DNA from: an uncultured virus (IMG/VR IMGVR_UViG_3300013232_000154)
Taxonomy: Duplodnaviria; Heunggongvirae; Uroviricota; Caudoviricetes
Strand: one strand, 5' to 3'
IMG/VR virus record: IMGVR_UViG_3300013232_000154
DNA: 64,000 nt
Below, piece by piece: positions 8,973-50,376 of this stretch. Below the pieces are notes generated by a model, which saw only the letters and a program-made list of their open reading frames with translations, was not told where the DNA came from and did no database searches. How positions within the stretch are numbered: the first letter of the stretch is position 1; each line of letters begins with the position of its first letter. The position numbers were made by a program, and so were the translations under genes.

Positions 8973-9336
8973 GAGTCTTGTAATGAGTTCAGTTGCCGAG
9001 TTCATTTTATCGAACAGAGTTCACAGGTACTTGACTGACAAAAAGTACAAGGGGCGTAAGCCATCTGGCTCCAGATCCAATTATTTCGCCTTGGTCTACG
9101 TAAACAAAGAACCCTATGCCTTGAAGATTGAACTGTCAAGACACAAAGGTGTTGGATCAGTTTGTTTCTATCTCCACTATCCACAAGACATTAAGGTTGA
9201 CAAAGAAGCGCACACTTTCATGCCAGGCAGTTGGACAACTTGTATCATGTGGAAGGGGCTGTACGGGAAGAAGAAGTTCAAGGTTTCTAACGGCGGCTGG
9301 TTGTGGATCAAGGTTACTAAAGGAGATGACCAATGA
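8965..9336 (+). CDS. hypothetical protein
   Basis: coupled ORF. Confidence 0.55.
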   Translation: MNRSLVMSSVAEFILSNRVHRYLTDKKYKGRKPSGSRSNYFALVYVNKEPYALKIELSRHKGVGSVCFYLHYPQDIKVDKEAHTFMPGSWTTCIMWKGLYGKKKFKVSNGGWLWIKVTKGDDQ

Positions 9337-9818
9337 GAAAAGTCAAAACGCTAGATAAGTGGCCAGCTAAATGGACCAAAGGACGACCAACGGTGGTCAG
9401 TCAACATATCTCGGCTTTCCAAGCAACACTTGGTGACGGGGCGCTAATAACCTCAGCCAGAGTCTCAACTCGAGGCGCGATTGCCGAGTCGGGAGGACCA
9501 GAACCATTTGATATCGCTTGCAACATTGGAGAGAAGTCGGAGCAAGGGATGAAAGACGCCTTGCTACTTGTTCTTAGGGAAAAAATGATAAATGACCTTG
9601 AGGCTGCAAACAAAATCCTCAAGTCTTACTTCACGGGAGCCAACCTGACAATAGAGGAGGCAACAACGGCATTGCTCTATTCACCCGCAATGTCCGTATG
9701 CATTTCTAACTCAAAAATGACCAAAGACGAGTTACTTAAGAAGCACGCCGAGCTTCGTCAAAACAGACGCAAAAAGTACGAAGAGATGCTTGACGTTGTC
9801 AAAGGTCTAACGGAATGA
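9333..9818 (+). CDS. hypothetical protein
   Basis: ATGA-coupled, SD. Confidence 0.6.
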   Translation: MRKVKTLDKWPAKWTKGRPTVVSQHISAFQATLGDGALITSARVSTRGAIAESGGPEPFDIACNIGEKSEQGMKDALLLVLREKMINDLEAANKILKSYFTGANLTIEEATTALLYSPAMSVCISNSKMTKDELLKKHAELRQNRRKKYEEMLDVVKGLTE

Positions 9819-10090
9819 CCGAAGCCAGACTCTTCTCTCTTGAAGCCGAGGCCAGGAAGGTCTTGGACAACGCATGCAAGCATAGGGATCGCATGTACCG
9901 CCTTGAGTACAAAGAGTGGAAGAAGATCATGAAGATGTTCGAGCGGGCCGCGTTCTTGCTCAAGCAAAGTGGAGACACCAGTTACCTCAACCTCATAAAA
10001 CCGTTCATCAAAATGTGTCGCAGACGGGTCGAAAGTTCCCCGTTTCATAGGGCGGACAGAAGCCGTGCCAAAAAAACCAGAAAAAGTTGA
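9815..10090 (+). CDS. hypothetical protein
   Basis: ATGA-coupled. Confidence 0.55.
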   Translation: MTEARLFSLEAEARKVLDNACKHRDRMYRLEYKEWKKIMKMFERAAFLLKQSGDTSYLNLIKPFIKMCRRRVESSPFHRADRSRAKKTRKS

Positions 10091-10100
10091 AGGAGTTCCC

Positions 10101-10128
10101 TTGACTCGCGTGTATGATATGGTAGAGT
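10101..10128 (+). promoter_or_regulatory. promoter of tRNA array 1
   Basis: TTGACT-N16-TAGAGT with extended TG. Confidence 0.65.
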
Positions 10129-10177
10129 TCGCGTAAGGACGAATGGTTCGTCCTGCTTTAGGAGTCTAGAGTCTACA

Positions 10178-10388: not shown

Positions 10389-10464
10389 CCAGGGTTGGTG
10401 TAGGTGGTACGCACGTAGGCCTGAAGAGCCTGAGGGTCCCGTCCGACTCGGGAACCCTGGACCA
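10389..10464 (+). tRNA. tRNA-Phe(GAA)
   Basis: Acceptor CCAGGGT/ACCCTGG-A-CCA; loop CT GAA GA. Confidence 0.75.
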
Positions 10465-10474
10465 TAAGGAAGAG

Positions 10475-10651
10475 ATGAAGCAGAAGGTGTTGGACGCGAT
10501 CAGGTTGAGAAAGGGCTTGGCAACCAGAATGTTCGATCTGAGACGCAGGAACAGAAAGGCATACGAGGAAGCCCTCCGCGTACTGCCACAAGAGCTGAGC
10601 GTAGACGTTCGCGATCACGTTGAGACGGCAGTCGTGTTGAGAGGCAAATGA
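10475..10651 (+). CDS. small hypothetical protein
   Basis: AAGGAAGAG SD. Confidence 0.5.
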   Translation: MKQKVLDAIRLRKGLATRMFDLRRRNRKAYEEALRVLPQELSVDVRDHVETAVVLRGK

Positions 10652-10697
10652 CGGGCTAATACGGTTCGTTCTTGGTTCCGAGATTGGCCTTGACGTA

Positions 10698-10892: not shown

Positions 10893-11017
10893 TGGCTGAA
10901 TGCCGTTGAGACTACATGGTGAAGCGATGGGGCCTAAAAAACCCCGTCTCGAGTTGGGTTCAAACCCCGACAATCTTGCCCTCGGGCAGGAGAAGTCTCA
11001 GCAACTTTTGTCAGCCA
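10893..11017 (+). ncRNA. Y RNA (YrlA)-like RNA 1
   Basis: GGCTGAATGC...TTGTCAGCC terminal stem with tRNA-like arms inside. Confidence 0.65.
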
Positions 11018-11383: not shown

Positions 11384-11457
11384 GGGGGTATGATCTAACG
11401 GGATGATGTAGCCTTTGCAAGGCTAACGTCCGAGTTCGACTCTCGGTACCTCCACCA
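11384..11457 (+). tRNA. tRNA-Ala(TGC)
   Basis: G3:U70, ACCA. Confidence 0.9.
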
Positions 11458-11765: not shown

Positions 11766-11899
11766 ATCCCGAATGCGCAAGCGAGTACATCGAAGACCGC
11801 CTCAGTGTGGGTTCGAATCCCACTCATGCCCGACGAGGGCATGATAGTCCAACTGGCAGAGACAGCGGGCAAAAGCCTCTCTTGCAATTTTGTCGGGAT
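11766..11899 (+). ncRNA. Y RNA (YrlA)-like RNA 2, canonical topology
   Basis: ATCCCGAATGC...TTGTCGGGAT; T arm, loop-closed acceptor, D arm; anticodon stem continues into long stem. Confidence 0.8.
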
Positions 11900-11904
11900 G
11901 ACTT

Positions 11905-12070: not shown

Positions 12071-12140
12071 GGGGCGATAGCCGGACAACCCGGCAGAGAT
12101 ACTTGGCCTTCAGCGGGTTCGAATCCCGTTCGCTCCACCA
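12071..12140 (+). ncRNA. Ala-acceptor tRNA-like RNA without a proper anticodon arm
   Basis: GGGGCGA/TCGCTCC-ACCA with G3:U70, canonical T arm. Confidence 0.55.
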
Positions 12141-12216
12141 TGGGAGATCGTCTAACGCCAGGACTCCGCGCAAACATGAGCGGATAACGGGGGTTAAACT
12201 CCCTCTCTCCCTACCA
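12141..12216 (+). ncRNA. tRNA-like RNA with aberrant anticodon loop
   Basis: D and T arms, ACCA; CCGC-GCAAACATGA-GCGG. Confidence 0.5.
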
Positions 12217-12235: not shown

Positions 12236-12517
12236 ATGAACAAGAAAGAGATCATTGACGCAGTTCGTGCTTGTACTGAATGGACCATCGAAGATTTGGT
12301 CTCGTTAGAACAAATCGCTAAAGACCTACGCAGAGGAACAGTACGAGCAAGACGAGACTTGATTCCCGTCGGCCCTCGCAACGTCCATACCGAGCATTGT
12401 TGTCTGACTCATGGATGCAAGTATAGCGATCCGAAATGTCCCGTGGCGACTGGAAACAATAGACAGTCTTACGACTGCGAAGAATGCGGCTTGGAAGACG
12501 AAGGTTACTTTGATTGA
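12236..12517 (+). CDS. hypothetical Cys/His-rich protein
   Basis: HTEHCCLTHGCKY motif. Confidence 0.65.
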   Translation: MNKKEIIDAVRACTEWTIEDLVSLEQIAKDLRRGTVRARRDLIPVGPRNVHTEHCCLTHGCKYSDPKCPVATGNNRQSYDCEECGLEDEGYFD

Positions 12518-12521
12518 TTAT

Positions 12522-12716
12522 GGGGGATTGGTGTAATGGCGCACGCCGACTTGAAACGTCGGAGGAACGGGTTCGATTCCCGTACATTAGTCTCTGGCTA
12601 ATTTTGCCTGTCCTGGTTTCTGAAACCGCATGGGGCGTTTCACCTCATGTGAATGGAATCGGGTTCGCGGATGGCCAGCGTTAACAGGATACGGACAGGG
12701 ACTACATCCTCCACCA
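12522..12716 (+). ncRNA. tRNA(GAA)-like RNA interrupted by a 122-nt structured insert
   Basis: 5' acceptor, D, anticodon and T arms at 12522-12583; 3' acceptor ATCCTCC-A-CCA at 12706-12716. Confidence 0.65.
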
Positions 12717-12786
12717 TCTTCAAATGCCCCCTCTGGCGCTACGATCCGCCTTGATCAGCGGGGAGCGCTTTTGGGGGCTCCAGATT

Positions 12787-12861
12787 GGACCCGTAGTTTA
12801 ATAGTAGAACACTTGCCTGTCGAGCAAGAGGCGCGGGGAGCGTTACCCCTCGGGTCCGCCA
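12787..12861 (+). tRNA. tRNA-Asp(GTC)
   Basis: cloverleaf, GCCA. Confidence 0.85.
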
Positions 12862-12868
12862 TGTTCAT

Positions 12869-12954
12869 GTCACTGTGGCGTAATTGGCAGCCGCGCCAGC
12901 TTGAGGGGCTGGTGGGTAATTCCCGTGTGGGTTCGACTCCCACCAGTGACACCA
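12869..12954 (+). tRNA. tRNA-Leu(GAG)
   Basis: long variable arm, ACCA. Confidence 0.9.
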
Positions 12955-12962
12955 AACTTCAT

Positions 12963-13040
12963 GGGGTCGAGGCCGAAGAAGCCGAGGCGCTTCCCTGTCA
13001 CGGAAGAGTAAAGCGGGTGCGAGTCCCGTCGATCCCGCCA
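12963..13040 (+). tRNA. tRNA-Asp(GTC)
   Basis: cloverleaf, GCCA. Confidence 0.85.
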
Positions 13041-13098
13041 TACAAGTTATGAACTATTGCCATAGAAAATACGTTATTACGTCACAAAGGAGACTTAT

Positions 13099-14640
13099 AT
13101 GCCTACATCTATTGATGAACCAGTTCTTCAAGACATTGAGGTTGAGCAAGATGGCATTTTTGGATCTGTTTCAGACACGTTCGGTTCGTCTCCATGGTGG
13201 ATCGTCTCAGGAGCCTTTCATGGGTTGTTGTTGCTACTGGTCACGCTGATCAGCATGACTCTTATCAGACCAACCCAGAGCGACACTATAATGACCACCA
13301 ACTTAGAAAAATCAAAACCACCAGAATATGACGAGAAAAAGCCACGTGACGTATTCAAAAACGCGGTTCAAGTCACGGAAGACGGGCCAGTGGTTGAACA
13401 TCCAGTTGTTACCCATGATCTGGTTGAGGTATCCGATCATGTAGAGACAGCAGACGATATGGACATGGCAAAAGCCAAAGGCGACAACATGGACGCCATT
13501 TCCGACGTCCCGCTTGGCGGTGTTGGTTTTGTTGCGGCCATGGGTTTAGGCGGTGGCGGTGGAGGGGCTTTTGGTCAGCGTGGAGAAGGTGGAAAGCGAA
13601 GGCTAGTATCCAAGAATGGTGGGGGTCAAGTTACTGAAGATTCCGTATCCGCAGCATTGCGCTGGCTAGCTAGGCATCAAGAACAAGATGGACATTGGGA
13701 CACGATTAAATACGGATCCGATCAGAAAACAGATACCGCGTCTACTGGCTTTGCCCTCTTGGCATTCCTCGGCGCTGGACACACAGAGAAGGTTGGACAA
13801 TACAGGGACAATGTCAGGCGAGCTGTTGCATGGCTCAAGTCTAGGCAAAACGCGGATGGACTAGTGTTTGACCAGACCGATGCTGGAGCGCATCGTGGGG
13901 TTGGCTATCCGCACGCTATCGCTGGGATGGCTCTGGCTGAGGCCGCTGGAATGGGAAAGGTCGCCGACACCGTAAGCGCGGCCCAGAAAGCGATTTCCTA
14001 CAGCGTAGACAAGCATCAGAATGGAGACGGCTACGACAAGCGTGGCTTTAGGTATCAGCCAAAGCAACAAGGGGATTTATCTGTAACTGGTTGGTTCGTG
14101 ATGCAACTGAAATCAGCCAAAGTAGCTGGACTCAACGTTGATCATCAGAACTTTGAGGGCGTACTAAAGTTCCTTGACTCTGTGGAGCGCAAAGGACGCG
14201 GTGGAGACAAGGGGTACGGCCCAGCGTCTACTTATGCATACACTGCTGACAACGACCACGAACAGACTGCCCATAGACTAACGGCGATTGGCAACCTATG
14301 CCGACAGTTCTTGGGATGGAAAAAGGATGATTTGCAGGCAAGCGTTTCCTGGTTTGTTGAAAAGGGTGGAGTTCCGAATGGATGGGGAGAAGGACAGACG
14401 GATCTGTACTACTGGTACTACGGTACCCTTTGTACGTTCCAGCAGGGTGGCGATATTTGGAAACAATGGAACGAAGCCATGAAGAAGACTCTCTGTGGAA
14501 ACCAGCGCCAAGGAGGAGACGAAGACGGGTCATGGGACCCAGTCGGCGACTACTCCAAAGAATGGGGACGTGTTGGGCAAACCGCAATGTGTGCTCTATG
14601 CCTAGAAGTATACTACCGTTATTTGCCGATGTACAAATAA
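13099..14640 (+). CDS. membrane-anchored prenyltransferase/squalene-cyclase-repeat protein (Planctomycete type)
   Basis: TM with SxxxH, Gly-rich linker, ALRWLARHQxxDGxW, DLSVTGW, YYWYYGT, LEVYYRY. Confidence 0.8.
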   Translation: MPTSIDEPVLQDIEVEQDGIFGSVSDTFGSSPWWIVSGAFHGLLLLLVTLISMTLIRPTQSDTIMTTNLEKSKPPEYDEKKPRDVFKNAVQVTEDGPVVEHPVVTHDLVEVSDHVETADDMDMAKAKGDNMDAISDVPLGGVGFVAAMGLGGGGGGAFGQRGEGGKRRLVSKNGGGQVTEDSVSAALRWLARHQEQDGHWDTIKYGSDQKTDTASTGFALLAFLGAGHTEKVGQYRDNVRRAVAWLKSRQNADGLVFDQTDAGAHRGVGYPHAIAGMALAEAAGMGKVADTVSAAQKAISYSVDKHQNGDGYDKRGFRYQPKQQGDLSVTGWFVMQLKSAKVAGLNVDHQNFEGVLKFLDSVERKGRGGDKGYGPASTYAYTADNDHEQTAHRLTAIGNLCRQFLGWKKDDLQASVSWFVEKGGVPNGWGEGQTDLYYWYYGTLCTFQQGGDIWKQWNEAMKKTLCGNQRQGGDEDGSWDPVGDYSKEWGRVGQTAMCALCLEVYYRYLPMYK

Positions 14641-15829: not shown

Positions 15830-15916
15830 CGCGGGATAGACTAGAGGTCAAAGTCACAAGGCTCATAACCTTGGCTGCGCAAGCAGACGCAGGTTCGAAT
15901 CCTGCTCCCGCTACCA
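15830..15916 (+). tRNA. tRNA-Met(CAT), initiator-like 1:72 mismatch, long variable arm
   Basis: CGCGGGA/TCCCGCT-ACCA. Confidence 0.8.
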
Positions 15917-26291: not shown

Positions 26292-26351
26292 ATGCCGAAT
26301 GCCGAAGGGACTACATCGGAAAAATGACGTCTCTTCAAACTTTGTCGGCAT
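26292..26351 (+). ncRNA. Y RNA-like RNA 3 (minimal, stem only)
   Basis: ATGCCGAATGC..GGGACTACAT..GTCTCT..TTGTCGGCAT. Confidence 0.65.
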
Positions 26352-26358
26352 GCTTTTT

Positions 26359-26443
26359 GGGTCTGCTAGGGCTGGGATGAAGCCCACGCGCCTGTAAGCG
26401 CGGCCTATATGGCTAAGCGGTTTGAATCCGCTCAGATCCACCA
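26359..26443 (+). tRNA. tRNA-Tyr(GTA), atypical loop
   Basis: variable arm, ACCA. Confidence 0.65.
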
Positions 26444-26622: not shown

Positions 26623-26702
26623 AGCCGAATGCCGAGGGGATTACATCTTTCTCATACAAAGAGCCGCCCCGCAAGGGGCTAATCTCCTCACTCTTGTCGG
26701 CT
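26623..26702 (+). ncRNA. Y RNA-like RNA 4
   Basis: AGCCGAATGC...TTGTCGGCT; internal CTTT-CTCATAC-AAAG hairpin. Confidence 0.65.
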
Positions 26703-26712
26703 GAACTTTTCT

Positions 26713-27087
26713 GGCTCTGGAGTGGCAGAGGATCGGTCTCCCATCCAGCGGGAGAAAAGGAACCTTGTCTCTTAGATCTCACCGAGGGGCCTGTCATCCT
26801 TCCCGTCGGGCAAATGCCTGAAGAACGATCCGTGGGTTCCACACCGCTAAAAACGATGGAAAAGCGGTCTCGCCTTCGATGGTGAGCAGTTCAGACCAAG
26901 TACGTCCCGCGTTCCAGCCGTGGGTTGGAGGGATAGCCTTGGGAGAGGAGAGCATAGGTTTCGTGTAACCGGGCCACGCCTTCATGGGTAACCATGCGGG
27001 ACAGCGAATGCCGTGGCAGGGGAGCGCGTTTCCTAAAAGGCCTCTAGCTGGACTGTTACGCGGGTTCGAGTCCCGTCAGAGCCACCA
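26713..27087 (+). ncRNA. 375-nt tmRNA-shaped RNA with tRNA-like termini
   Basis: GGCTCTG/CAGAGCC-A-CCA, T arm GCGGG-TTCGAGT-CCCGT, long helix TCCAGC/GCTGGA. Confidence 0.65.
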
Positions 27088-27175: not shown

Positions 27176-27306
27176 TGACCGAATGCAGAAGGGATTACAT
27201 CTCATGTGAAGAGAGAGATCTGGGTTCGAATCCCAGCAGCCCCACATCGACGGGGCTGTAGCTTAATGGCAGAGCGCTAAACTAGTCTCTTCAATTTTGT
27301 CGGTCA
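27176..27306 (+). ncRNA. Y RNA-like RNA 5 with permuted tRNA (GTG loop)
   Basis: TGACCGAATGC...TTGTCGGTCA enclosing anticodon, T, acceptor and D arms. Confidence 0.75.
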
Positions 27307-27311
27307 ATTAC

Positions 27312-28255: not shown

Positions 28256-28341
28256 GGTAGCGTAGCCTAATGGTCGAGGCACTTGCCTGATACGCAAGGG
28301 GCGAAAGCCTTATGCAGGTTCGATTCCTGCCGCTACCACCA
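28256..28341 (+). tRNA. tRNA-Ile(GAT), long variable arm
   Basis: cloverleaf, ACCA. Confidence 0.8.
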
Positions 28342-29420: not shown

Positions 29421-29547
29421 TGGCCGAATGCAGGTTAGGGACTACAGCCTGAAGAGCTGGAGGAGCCGTTCGACTCGGCAGCGCCCACTTGACGGGCGTT
29501 TAGTGTAACGGTTGCACGACAAACGTCTCTGCCATTTTTGTCGGCCA
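29421..29547 (+). ncRNA. Y RNA-like RNA 6 with permuted tRNA (GAA loop)
   Basis: TGGCCGAATGC...TTGTCGGCCA enclosing anticodon, T, acceptor and D arms. Confidence 0.75.
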
Positions 29548-29553
29548 TGTTTT

Positions 29554-49587: not shown

Positions 49588-50376
49588 ATGCCAAAAAGCA
49601 GACCGATTCTCTTTAACGGCGAGATGGTCAGAGCCATCTTGGCCGACAAGAAGACTCAGACCAGACGACCCGTGAAGTTCGTCCCCGCTCTTGGAGAACC
49701 AGACTACTGGTGCCCCTTGTACAAGGACAAGCCAGGCGATTTCCGTAGCATGGTAGGCAATCTTCCGAGATATTGCCCATTCGGCGACATCGGCGACACG
49801 CTCTGGGTCAAAGAAACGTGGTCCGTCGCTGCGAGCGTTCGCAGTACCTTTGAAAGCGTCTATCCAGACGACACCGTTGACTGGGAAGGGCCAGCCCCGT
49901 CACACAAACCGAAAGACCTTGTTCGCGTCGGAGAGGTTTCTCTTACCTTTAGCGAGCCATGGGTTCTCGGATGGCGAGCTGATTACTTCGGAGACGATAC
50001 GTACGAGTACAGAGGCTTCAAGTGGCGGCCATCGATCCACATGCCCAGATGGGCCTCCAGACTCGCGCTGAAAATCACGGACATTGACGTCCAACGCGTC
50101 AACGACATCACCGATGATGATGCTTTGGCCGAAGGGATAAGGCCTCATCAGGACATCACCCAGTACGAAGGCAAGATGGCCAATTGCTTCTTGCGGGAAT
50201 GGGACTACATCTACGCGTCCAGAGGCATGGGACGAAAGGAGAATCCATGGGTATGGATCATCAAGTTCGAGACGGTGGAGGCATACTGCCAAGAGAACAT
50301 AAGGAAACACATCAAGGACGATTTCGAGGGCAAGCAGGATTTATGCTTTCTCAAGCGGTTGAAATGGAAATACTAG
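49588..50376 (+). CDS. conserved phage ASCH/PUA-like protein
   Basis: PILFNGEMVRAIL..KTQTRR, WRPSIHMPRWASR, NPWVW. Confidence 0.8.
   Translation: MPKSRPILFNGEMVRAILADKKTQTRRPVKFVPALGEPDYWCPLYKDKPGDFRSMVGNLPRYCPFGDIGDTLWVKETWSVAASVRSTFESVYPDDTVDWEGPAPSHKPKDLVRVGEVSLTFSEPWVLGWRADYFGDDTYEYRGFKWRPSIHMPRWASRLALKITDIDVQRVNDITDDDALAEGIRPHQDITQYEGKMANCFLREWDYIYASRGMGRKENPWVWIIKFETVEAYCQENIRKHIKDDFEGKQDLCFLKRLKWKY

What the first reader, a model, noticed from the sequence alone, without database searches (positions are those of the whole stretch)
12522..12716. tRNA with a 122-nt structured insert between T arm and acceptor strand, Phe anticodon and Ala identity pair
Seen: intact 5' acceptor, D, anticodon (GAA) and T arms, then insert 12584-12705 closed by TAGTCTCTG/CAGGGACTA, then ATCCTCC-A-CCA. 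The acceptor has G3:U70, the established AlaRS determinant. The closing helix resembles the Y-RNA inner helix with its strands swapped, and TACAT occurs at both junctions. Inference: an inside-out Y RNA, an unusual intron, or a mistranslating/decoy tRNA.
Basis: partly seen in the sequence, partly recalled or inferred. Interest (0 to 1): 0.7.

Follow-up and report, generated by a model that had tools for sequence, protein, structure and literature searches.

The report
Phage tRNA carrying a Y-RNA-like arm
A large uncultured phage encodes a complete tRNA-shaped RNA with a 122-base folded arm wedged between its T arm and its 3' end; the arm looks borrowed from the phage's own Y RNAs, and the layout has not been described before, though its function is unknown.

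Summary
Bases 12522-12716 (+) fold as a full cloverleaf with anticodon GAA and an encoded ACCA end. A 122-nt hairpin-closed insert (12584-12705) splits the T arm from the 3' acceptor strand. This is not chance: an acceptor complement plus CCA within 200 nt has about 2% odds, and the helix abuts both junctions.

A relative about 85% identical, seen in a public metagenome contig, keeps the whole layout. It has a compensatory C-G to G-C change in the anticodon stem. Its 15-nt block holding GGGACUACAU is unchanged.

The window also holds six YrlA-like Y RNAs. The insert shares their GGGAYUACAU/UAGUCUC helix in the same polarity, and its stem has the same helix, internal loop, helix plan. A stretch of its cap resembles one Y RNA. 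It lacks the CGAA Ro60 motif, and profile searches support only the 10-mer. So "inside-out Y RNA" is partly right.

The G3:U70/A73 alanine signature is not conserved: the relative has G3:C70 and G73. A dedicated mistranslating tRNA is therefore unlikely.

My best reading (about 0.4) is a non-decoding tRNA-framed RNA of the phage's Y-RNA/tRNA-mimic set. A protein-spliced intron and a tolerated recombination scar remain open. No RNA data were available. I rate it a new variant of a known kind.

The parts
12522..12528 (+). 5' acceptor strand GGGGGAU (G3 at 12524)
   Evidence: Sequence. Pairs with 12706-12712 in the MFE and centroid folds. No differences are listed here in the X2 relative.
12531..12544 (+). 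D arm (GUGU/GCAC stem, loop AAUGGC with G18 G19)
   Evidence: Rfam tRNA alignment; fold.
12546..12562 (+). Anticodon arm with loop UUGAAAC and anticodon GAA at 12553-12555
   Evidence: Rfam alignment. The X2 relative changes 12550 C>G together with 12558 G>C (pair 31-39 kept). It also changes 12551 and 12557 (loop positions 32 and 38). GAA is unchanged.
12567..12583 (+). T arm (ACGGG UUCGAUU CCCGU)
   Evidence: Rfam alignment. The relative has 12567 A>G (A-U to G-U) and 12577 T>G in the loop.
12584..12705 (+). 122-nt structured insert (extra arm): linker ACAU, P1, internal loop, P2, and a cap of about 72 nt with two or three hairpins
   Evidence: Folds. Single copy in the window. Kept, with +1/-1 indels, in the X2 relative.
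12588..12596 (+). P1 strand UAGUCUCUG, which leaves the tRNA core and resembles the Y-RNA 3' strand
   Evidence: Alignment A2. TCTCTGGCTAATTTTG against Y11766 gives p=0.04. The 3'-strand HMM gives no hit. Three changes in the relative.
12696..12707 (+). P1 strand CAGGGACUA plus CAU; it contains GGGACUACAU, the invariant block of the window's Y-RNA 5' strands
   Evidence: Exact 10-mer found at 5 places in the window; three are in Y RNAs, one is here and one lies in an ORF at 50201. The 12-mer match to Y26292 gives p=0.002. The block ACAGGGACTACATCC is identical in the X2 relative, P=0.011 at the third-position rate.
12607..12611 (+). P2 outer helix CCUGU, pairing with ACAGG at 12684-12688; it follows an asymmetric internal loop (AAUUUUG / AUAC), as in the Y-RNA stems
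   Evidence: Folds. Four of 5 pairs are kept in the relative (reading).
12637..12667 (+). Cap segment resembling Y27176's 5'-strand end, V arm and start of T arm (CUCAUGUGAA ... GGGUUCG)
   Evidence: Local alignment score 26. Reached by 5 of 4000 shuffles, but also by 13 of 1020 natural window segments.
12706..12716 (+). 3' acceptor strand AUCCUCC (U70 at 12710), discriminator A73, encoded CCA
   Evidence: Sequence; pattern count. The relative has ATCCCCC-G-CCA.
12717..12779 (+). 63-nt hairpin spacer flanked by CCA repeats; absent from the X2 relative, where CCA is followed by GATT and tRNA-Asp
   Evidence: Joint 12684>12780 with 30 letters between; fold at -33.9 kcal/mol.
27176..27309 (+). 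Context: best YrlA-like Y RNA of the window. Others lie at 10893-11016, 11766-11900, 26292-26354, 26623-26703 and 29421-29550.
   Evidence: Rfam YrlA at 46.9, 36.1 and 22.6 bits, all below the gathering score of 69. Strand HMMs. Folds of four of the six.

Best explanation
This is a functional but non-decoding tRNA-framed RNA that belongs to the phage's set of Y RNAs and tRNA mimics.

Proposed steps, all inferred unless marked:
- It is transcribed with the tRNA array.
- RNase P cuts at G1. The gene starts about 5 nt after the stop of the upstream ORF.
- The encoded CCA end is trimmed like any tRNA.
- The product is an RNA of about 195 nt: a normal L-shaped tRNA body plus a long irregular helix emerging between nucleotides 65 and 66.
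- That arm derives from a Y-RNA stem of the same phage. It keeps the GGGACUACAU strand that is invariant in those Y RNAs.
- The arm's position in the acceptor/T-arm stack should stop EF-Tu and the ribosome from using the RNA. This step rests on recalled structures of EF-Tu bound to tRNA.
- The molecule would therefore act as a stable decoy or tether. Its tRNA body would engage tRNA-recognising proteins (processing, repair or anticodon-nuclease enzymes). Its arm would engage whatever recognises the same motif in the phage's Y RNAs.

Shown here: the anatomy, the conservation and the Y-motif sharing.
For: Anatomy and non-chance.

Conservation in the X2 relative (tests; pairing check):
- The whole layout is kept.
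- The anticodon stem has a compensatory pair change.
- The tRNA part has 6 changes in 62 nt, against 16 changes in 62 third-codon positions of the adjoining ORF (one-sided p=0.016).
- The 15-nt block holding GGGACUACAU is unchanged (P=0.011).
- Acceptor complementarity and CCA are kept, although 63 nt downstream are missing.

Not a normal decoder:
- Its tRNA parts have 8 changes in 73 nt. The neighbouring tRNA-Asp and tRNA-Leu have 0 in 178 (p=4e-5).
- The discriminator and pair 3:70 differ between relatives.
- A canonical tRNA-Phe(GAA) already lies at 10389-10464.

Y-RNA link:
- Six YrlA-like RNAs lie in the window.
- The shared motif has the same polarity, and the stem has the same helix, loop, helix plan.
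- A cap segment resembles Y27176.

Precedent from Chen et al. 2014 (PMC4201824, passages read):
- M. smegmatis YrlA is opened by RNase P and receives CCA.
- The authors suggest that the tRNA fold protects Y RNAs from nucleases.

Context: RNA ligase, two PTH2, 2H phosphoesterase, an AAA_33 kinase-like protein and an RNase T-family exonuclease are encoded in the window.
Against: - No RNA evidence of any kind.
- The Ro60-associated GNCGAAN0-1G/CGAA motif is absent from the arm.
- No TROVE/Ro60 gene was found in the 64 kb window.
- Profile HMMs of the Y strands support only the 10-mer (E 0.11-0.19). An equally good hit lies inside an ORF at 50193.
- The first 61 nt of the arm diverge at about the third-codon-position rate: 13 of 61 against 16 of 62, p=0.67. 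Most of the arm is therefore not visibly constrained.
- Only one informative relative was seen, and its changes beyond 12644 were not shown.
- The compensatory pair consists of two adjacent double changes. These could be one mutational event.
- The fold z-score is modest at -2.2.
Confidence: 0.4

Rival explanations
1. It is an intron-containing tRNA gene. The Y-derived hairpin would be cut out at the 65/66 junction by a protein endonuclease. The ends would be rejoined by an RNA ligase, perhaps the phage's own, giving a working tRNA(GAA).
For: - The 'exons' are more conserved than most of the insert.
- The helix at the junctions is kept and the interior drifts near the neutral rate, which is an intron-like pattern.
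- The exons alone make a complete cloverleaf with CCA.
- The window encodes RNA ligase, a kinase-like protein and a 2H phosphoesterase.
- Duplicate decoders are common in this array.
Against: - No group I, group II or small-ribozyme family matches at E<=10, and 122 nt is too short for group I (recalled).
- No bulge-helix-bulge geometry: the junctions have 4 nt and 1 nt single-stranded next to a 9-bp helix.
- I found no splicing-endonuclease domain among the ORFs scanned. Bacteria are not known to have one (10.1101/312249, passage read).
- The exons diverge far faster than the neighbouring tRNAs, and the discriminator changes.
Confidence: 0.2
2. It is a recombination scar. A redundant tRNA gene was disrupted by illegitimate recombination with Y-RNA gene sequence or by a small hairpin insertion. 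It is tolerated and slowly decaying, with no function of its own.
For: - The arm looks like a patchwork of Y pieces.
- L028 shows a Y 5' strand fused to the 3' part of tRNA-Tyr.
- The lineage gains and loses small hairpins, such as the 63-nt spacer flanked by CCA repeats.
- In L018 a 96-nt element sits in three tRNA genes in both orientations.
- TACAT flanks the insert.
- Constraint is relaxed compared with the neighbouring tRNAs.
Against: - The tRNA part diverges less than third-codon positions (p=0.016).
- A compensatory stem change is present.
- The 15-nt motif block, the acceptor complementarity and CCA are all kept across about 15% divergence.
- Removing the insert through the TACAT repeat would leave two extra bases, not a normal tRNA.
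- TACAT reads TACCAT on the left side in the relative.
- The insert is single copy in the window. It was not found in IMG/VR or in GTDB species genomes.
Confidence: 0.25
3. It is an alanine-accepting tRNA-like RNA, either a mistranslating Ala-tRNA(GAA) or a tmRNA-like molecule. AlaRS would charge it through G3:U70 and A73.
For: - The window copy has G1-C72, G2-C71, G3:U70, G4-C69 and A73.
- Its acceptor is nearly the same as that of the phage's tRNA-Ala(UGC) at 11384-11457.
- AlaRS charges minihelices (recalled).
- tmRNA also joins an Ala acceptor to a large insert.
Against: - The X2 relative has C70 and G73.
- The RNA has an intact anticodon arm.
- I saw no credible tag reading frame; the only ORF starting in the insert (12630-13052) runs across two tRNA genes.
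- ARAGORN finds no tmRNA, and Rfam gives no tmRNA hit here.
- The insert sits on the wrong side of the T arm for a tmRNA.
Confidence: 0.07

Closest known systems
YrlA (Y RNA-like A; Rfam RF02553; Chen et al. 2014, PMC4201824; structure preprint 10.1101/312249)
   Same: - Phage- or bacterium-encoded tRNA mimic with real T and D arms joined to a long bipartite stem.
- Six such RNAs lie in the same array, and the finding shares their GGGAYUACAU/UAGUCUC helix with the same polarity.
- M. smegmatis YrlA is even opened by RNase P and given CCA.
   Different: - Here the acceptor ends are the transcript ends and CCA is encoded.
- A true anticodon arm with GAA is present.
- The Y-like stem is closed by a cap.
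- The stem is attached between the T arm and the 3' acceptor strand, not at the anticodon position.
- There is no GNCGAAN0-1G motif and no hit to the Rfam model.
tmRNA (one-piece and permuted two-piece forms)
   Same: - A tRNA frame (acceptor, T arm, CCA) carrying a large structured insert.
- The window copy has the G3:U70/A73 alanine signature.
   Different: - The insert lies 3' of the T arm, not between the D analogue and the T arm.
- The anticodon arm is present.
- I saw no credible tag reading frame or pseudoknots.
- The alanine pair is not conserved.
- ARAGORN and Rfam are negative.
tRNA introns: bacterial group I in the anticodon loop, and archaeal non-canonical bulge-helix-bulge introns (positions recalled)
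   Same: - A structured insert interrupts an otherwise complete tRNA.
- The helix next to both junctions is kept.
   Different: - The position is 65/66.
- There is no group I core and no BHB motif.
- The host is probably bacterial (Planctomycetota), with no known splicing endonuclease.
D. radiodurans Yrn1 (Chen et al. 2014)
   Same: A Y RNA in which the order of the tRNA-like arms relative to the RNA ends differs from YrlA, with an anticodon-like arm. This shows that tRNA and Y combinations arose more than once.
   Different: - Yrn1 has no open CCA acceptor.
- Its Ro60-binding stem holds the RNA ends.

Membership tests
tRNA (Rfam RF00005) | Covariance-model score above the gathering threshold over the cloverleaf | tested here: met
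   39.4 bits against 29, but only for model positions 7-64 of 71.
tRNA (Rfam RF00005) | Contiguous T arm and 3' acceptor strand, so that the acceptor closes within the gene | tested here: not met
   122 nt lie between position 65 and position 66. ARAGORN does not call it.
tRNA (decoding, Phe) | Identity elements and sequence kept as tightly as in the neighbouring tRNAs | tested here: not met
   8 changes in 73 nt against 0 in 178 in tRNA-Asp and tRNA-Leu. A73 becomes G73 in the relative.
YrlA / bacterial Y RNA | Hit to Rfam RF02553 | tested here: not met
   No YrlA match at E<=10 in 12400-12800. The model cannot see a strand-swapped stem, so this test is weak.
YrlA / bacterial Y RNA | GNCGAAN0-1G (CGAA) motif in the 5' strand, thought to be the Ro60 contact (PMC4201824; PMC12135203) | tested here: not met
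   The equivalent stretch reads ACAGGAUAC in the window and ACAGUAUGC in the relative.
YrlA / bacterial Y RNA | 5' and 3' ends pair to form the stem; the acceptor-like stem is a closed loop | tested here: not met
   The reverse holds: the stem is closed and the acceptor is open with CCA.
YrlA / bacterial Y RNA | tRNA-like T and D arms with G18 G19 and UUCGA | tested here: met
   alignment.
YrlA / bacterial Y RNA | Encoded next to a Ro60/TROVE gene | tested here: inconclusive
   None in the 64 kb window. The rest of the genome is not held. The related array in L018 does have a TROVE ORF.
tmRNA | Called by ARAGORN or Rfam; tag reading frame; no anticodon arm | tested here: not met
   The anticodon arm is intact.
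Group I / group II intron or small self-cleaving ribozyme | Match to any Rfam intron or ribozyme model | tested here: not met
   None at E<=10.
MITE / small mobile DNA element | Several copies; target-site duplication whose removal restores the host gene | tested here: not met
   Single copy in the window. The searches in IMG/VR and GTDB genomes gave none or only chance hits. Removal through TACAT leaves 2 extra bases.

The most novel reading that the evidence does not exclude
One reading: a natural bifunctional chimera. A chargeable tRNA with anticodon and CCA end permanently carries a Y-RNA-type handle. It would link the phage's Y-RNA partner (Ro60/PNPase-like machinery or another factor that reads GGGACUACAU) to tRNA-binding enzymes or to the ribosome.

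The other reading: the first protein-spliced tRNA intron in a bacterial virus, at position 65/66, resealed by the phage RNA ligase.
Probability: 0.2. Interest if true: 0.85.

Novelty: new variant of a known kind. Interest (0 to 1): 0.55.

Why it matters
Y RNAs and other tRNA mimics in phage tRNA arrays are known, but what they do is not. This RNA joins a complete tRNA (anticodon and CCA end included) to a Y-type stem in a topology I did not find in print.

If stable, it would be a handle for finding what reads the conserved GGGAYUACAU helix. It would also help test whether phage Y RNAs act on the tRNA machinery.

If spliced, it would be a new kind of bacterial-virus tRNA intron.

It also shows that tRNA and Y modules are being reshuffled inside these arrays.

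Tried and rejected
Searches for homologues:
- IMG/VR, exact T-arm/insert junction: 0 hits.
- IMG/VR, strand-swapped stem pattern: 17 loci, all chance matches with no tRNA context.
- IMG/VR and GTDB genomes, 3' junction pattern: 5 and 4 loci, all apparently in coding sequence and none with a tRNA context.
- Phage GenBank collection: only tRNA-Leu similarity by DNA. Two window proteins gave no match.
- Anchoring on the neighbouring terpene-cyclase gene: no relative in IMG/VR.
- The same anchor in metagenome contigs gave 74 loci. Only L028 shares other window sequence (the 26-27 kb RNA region). None holds the finding.

Other attempts:
- Own genome: not held.
- Sequencing runs: no RNA holder was listed, so expression and splicing could not be examined.
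- Parts of the stretch without contig cover in X1, X4 and X14 say nothing.
- Earlier notes of this scan: nothing for this genome or this sequence.
- Promoter and terminator scan: nothing useful near the gene.

Readings rejected:
- MITE or IS200/605-like element. It is single copy, and excision would not restore a tRNA.
- tmRNA.
- Known ribozymes and introns.
- The ORF 12630-13052 that starts in the insert. It runs across two tRNA genes and is spurious.

I could not score a strand-swapped Y stem with the Rfam model. That would need a rearranged sequence, which I did not build.

Full report
**Setting**

The window looks like part of a large, uncultured phage.
- It has about 50% G+C and many short ORFs.
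- ARAGORN tRNA genes with encoded CCA between 10.4 and 31.9 kb.
- RNA-repair and tRNA-related genes are present: an RNA ligase fragment at 1-507, two PTH2, a 2H phosphoesterase, NUDIX, an AAA_33 kinase-like protein, Macro, NADAR and an RNase T-family exonuclease.
- No whole genome is held.
- The GenBank phage collection gave only tRNA-Leu similarity by DNA, and two window proteins gave no match there. A cyclase-anchored scan and an exact junction pattern found nothing in IMG/VR.
- The neighbouring 513-aa terpene-cyclase-like protein has 60-67% identical homologues named from Planctomycetota. That hints at the host.

**The observation**

- 12522-12583 gives the 5' acceptor strand GGGGGAU, a D arm with G18 G19, an anticodon arm with loop UUGAAAC (GAA at 12553-12555) and a T arm ACGGG-UUCGAUU-CCCGU.
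- Then come 122 nt (12584-12705). They are closed by UAGUCUCUG (12588-12596) pairing with CAGGGACUA (12696-12704).
- Then come AUCCUCC (12706-12712), A73 and CCA (12714-12716).
- G3 faces U70.
- TACAT occurs at both junctions.

Tool support:
- Rfam scores 12528-12584 as tRNA positions 7-64, at 39.4 bits against a gathering score of 29.
- Nothing else in Rfam matches 12400-12800 at E<=10.
- ARAGORN does not call it.
- The MFE and centroid folds give the cloverleaf plus the closed insert, with a modest z-score of -2.2.

Chance:
- A complement of the 5' strand followed by NCCA occurs 13 times on both strands of the window. That is about 2% odds of one within 200 nt on the right strand.
- A 9-bp helix also abuts both junctions.

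**Relatives**

The only comparative data came from laying public-run contigs on 12236-13100.

Contig record 17 of run X2 (2421 nt) aligns to 12332-12684 with 54 other letters and 3 gaps.
- It then has 30 letters of its own, and then rejoins at 12780 with no differences through tRNA-Asp and tRNA-Leu.
- Those 30 letters hold a Y-like strand, the block ACAGGGACTACATCC, then CCC and G.
- With the CCA at 12780-12782 the relative reads ATCCCCC-G-CCA, followed by GATT and tRNA-Asp.
- So the relative keeps the tRNA body, the insert (with +1/-1 indels), the acceptor complement and CCA.
- It has G3:C70 and G73.
- It lacks the 63-nt hairpin spacer 12717-12779, which in the window is flanked by CCA repeats.

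Listed changes in the X2 relative:
- 12550 C>G together with 12558 G>C. Pair 31-39 goes from C-G to G-C.
- 12551 and 12557, at loop positions 32 and 38.
- 12567 A>G, which turns A-U into G-U.
- GAA is unchanged.
- No change is listed in 12522-12549.

Divergence counts (tests):
- ORF third positions: 16 of 62.
- tRNA part: 6 of 62 (one-sided p=0.016 against third positions).
- First 61 nt of the insert: 13 substitutions plus 2 indels (p=0.67 against third positions, so not distinguishable from neutral).
- The 15-nt motif block is unchanged (P=0.011).
- The finding's tRNA parts have 8 changes in 73 nt. tRNA-Asp and tRNA-Leu have 0 in 178 (p=4e-5).

Changes beyond 12644 were not shown to me ("14 more are not shown"). 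Pairs 12617/12658 and 12631/12647 therefore cannot be judged.

Other runs:
- X1 record 2 covers 12588-12738 with 4 differences.
- X14 records cover 12541-12581 and 12695-12743.
- Parts of the stretch, including the insert and the 3' junction, are thus covered by contigs from three coded studies.

**The Y-RNA link**

A permissive Rfam scan found YrlA-like matches below the gathering score of 69:
- 27176-27309: 46.9 bits.
- 26292-26354: 36.1 bits.
- 29421-29550: 22.6 bits.

Reading the sequence, strand HMMs and folds add 26623-26703, 10893-11016 and 11766-11900. All six share these features:
- An outer helix holding CGAAUGC or a close variant (CUGAAUGC in 10893).
- An asymmetric internal loop.
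- An inner helix whose 5' strand ends in GGGAYUACAU or a close variant.
- A 3' strand RUCUCY...UUUUGUCGG.
- A tRNA-like core in four of them (10893, 11766, 27176, 29421). The other two (26292, 26623) have only a short hairpin or linker there.

In the finding:
- The strand leaving the tRNA core is UAGUCUCUGGCUAAUUUUGCCUGUC.
- The strand re-entering it is ACAGGAUACGGACAGGGACUACAU (alignments A1 and A2).
- This is the same helix, the same polarity relative to the tRNA core and the same helix, loop, helix plan. The strand order is swapped and the far end is closed by a cap of about 72 nt.

Statistics are mixed:
- The exact 10-mer occurs 5 times in the window: three in Y RNAs, one in the finding and one in an ORF at 50201.
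- The 12-mer match to Y26292 gives p=0.002 against shuffles.
- The 3'-strand-like match to Y11766 gives p=0.04.
- A cap segment (12637-12667) aligns to Y27176's UUACAU-CUCAUGUGAA...GGGUUCG. The score is reached by 5 of 4000 shuffles, but also by 13 of 1020 natural window segments, mostly tRNA-bearing.
- Strand profile HMMs built without the finding give only E 0.11-0.19 for the 10-mer core. The 3'-strand HMM gives no hit.
- The GNCGAAN0-1G motif that Chen et al. 2014 link to Ro60/Rsr recognition is absent (PMC4201824, passages read).

I conclude that the arm is probably derived from Y-RNA sequence of this phage and keeps one conserved strand. It is not a YrlA, and it need not bind Ro60.

No TROVE gene is in the window. 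A GC-rich phage contig with similar Y RNAs (L018) has one inside its array.

**What it is not**

- Not a known intron or ribozyme.
- Not a tmRNA.
- Not a repeated mobile element. It is single copy in the window and was not found in IMG/VR or in GTDB species genomes.
- Removing it through the TACAT repeat would leave two extra bases. The left TACAT reads TACCAT in the relative.
- The tRNA body has no close paralogue in the array. The best matches share 46 of 62 positions, with tRNA-His and tRNA-Gly.
- Its acceptor resembles that of tRNA-Ala(UGC).

**How it most likely works**

Shown:
- The anatomy.
- Conservation of the layout.
- Relaxed but non-neutral constraint on the tRNA part.
- A conserved Y-type motif strand.

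Inferred:
- RNase P and 3' trimming give an RNA of about 195 nt.
- The arm leaves the continuous strand of the acceptor/T stack at 65/66. EF-Tu contacts the backbone there (recalled from published structures of EF-Tu bound to tRNA, not tested). The full-length RNA should therefore not decode.
- It would then be a stable tRNA-framed decoy or tether within the phage's Y-RNA/tRNA-mimic set. This echoes the suggestion by Chen et al. 2014 that the tRNA fold and CCA protect Y RNAs. It also echoes a report that a phage Ro60 with Y-like RNAs can engage host PNPase (PMC12135203, passages read).

I give this reading about 0.4. The rivals are a protein-spliced intron (0.2), a tolerated recombination scar (0.25) and an alanine-accepting or mistranslating RNA (0.07).

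**Comparison and novelty**

YrlA is a permuted tRNA with a closed acceptor and the Y stem at the anticodon position. Yrn1 differs again in arm order (PMC4201824; 10.1101/312249, passages read).

The present topology has an open CCA acceptor, a real anticodon arm and a closed Y-type stem between the T arm and the acceptor. It did not turn up in four full-text searches or in earlier notes of this scan. Those notes do record several YrlA-like mimics in other phage arrays.

I rate it a new variant of a known kind, with interest 0.55.

Noticed in passing
window 10893-11016, 11766-11900, 26292-26354, 26623-26703, 27176-27309, 29421-29550 (+): Six YrlA-like Y RNAs sit inside the tRNA array. Three start 0-2 nt after the CCA of an upstream tRNA. 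All score below Rfam's gathering threshold or are missed. No Ro60/TROVE gene lies in the window.
   Followed up: partly
window 26713-27087 (+): A 375-nt RNA with tRNA-like ends: acceptor GGCUCUG/CAGAGCC, a T arm and ACCA, with about 300 nt inserted before the T arm. The plan is tmRNA-like, but pair 3:70 is C-G and ARAGORN makes no call. It is 90.7% identical in metagenome locus L028. Rfam tmRNA scores only 13 bits.
   Followed up: partly
window 12071-12140 and 12141-12216 (+): Two further odd tRNA-like genes. The first has a G3:U70/A73 acceptor, one D-like hairpin, a T arm and no anticodon arm. The second is a cloverleaf with an oversized anticodon loop and an unusual T loop.
   Followed up: partly
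L018 about 9253-9348, about 10058-10153 and 10494-10657: In a GC-rich provirus contig with similar Y RNAs, one structured element of about 96 nt (GACTAGGGTCC...GCGAAAC) sits after GGTT in the T loops of two tRNA genes. A reverse-orientation copy sits in the anticodon loop of a tRNA-Arg(UCG), whose reverse strand reads GGTTCGAAG. This points to a DNA-level mobile element that targets GGTT^CGA.
   Followed up: partly
L018 about 12800-14430 (L102 676-2307): A 544-aa open frame with a TROVE (Ro60) match of 23.1 bits lies inside that phage's tRNA/Y-RNA array.
   Followed up: partly
L028 minus strand, about 350-435: A Y-RNA 5' strand is fused directly to the long variable arm, T arm and acceptor 3' end of tRNA-Tyr. 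The window has a Y RNA and three tRNA-like genes at that place. This is a deletion or recombination product between Y and tRNA modules.
   Followed up: no
window 12717-12779 (+): A 63-nt hairpin (-33.9 kcal/mol) flanked by CCA repeats is absent from the X2 relative. It is a small indel element placed right at a tRNA-like 3' end.
   Followed up: partly
window 15830-15916, 28256-28341, 26359-26443 (+): tRNA-Met(CAT) of 87 nt and tRNA-Ile(GAT) of 86 nt are unusually long for these isoacceptors. ARAGORN also reports a tRNA with a two-base anticodon.
   Followed up: no
window 13099-14640 (+): A terpene cyclase/prenyltransferase-repeat protein sits inside the tRNA array. It has 60-80% identical homologues in metagenomes and in Planctomycetota MAGs. 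It is probably a host-derived gene and a hint to the host.
   Followed up: partly
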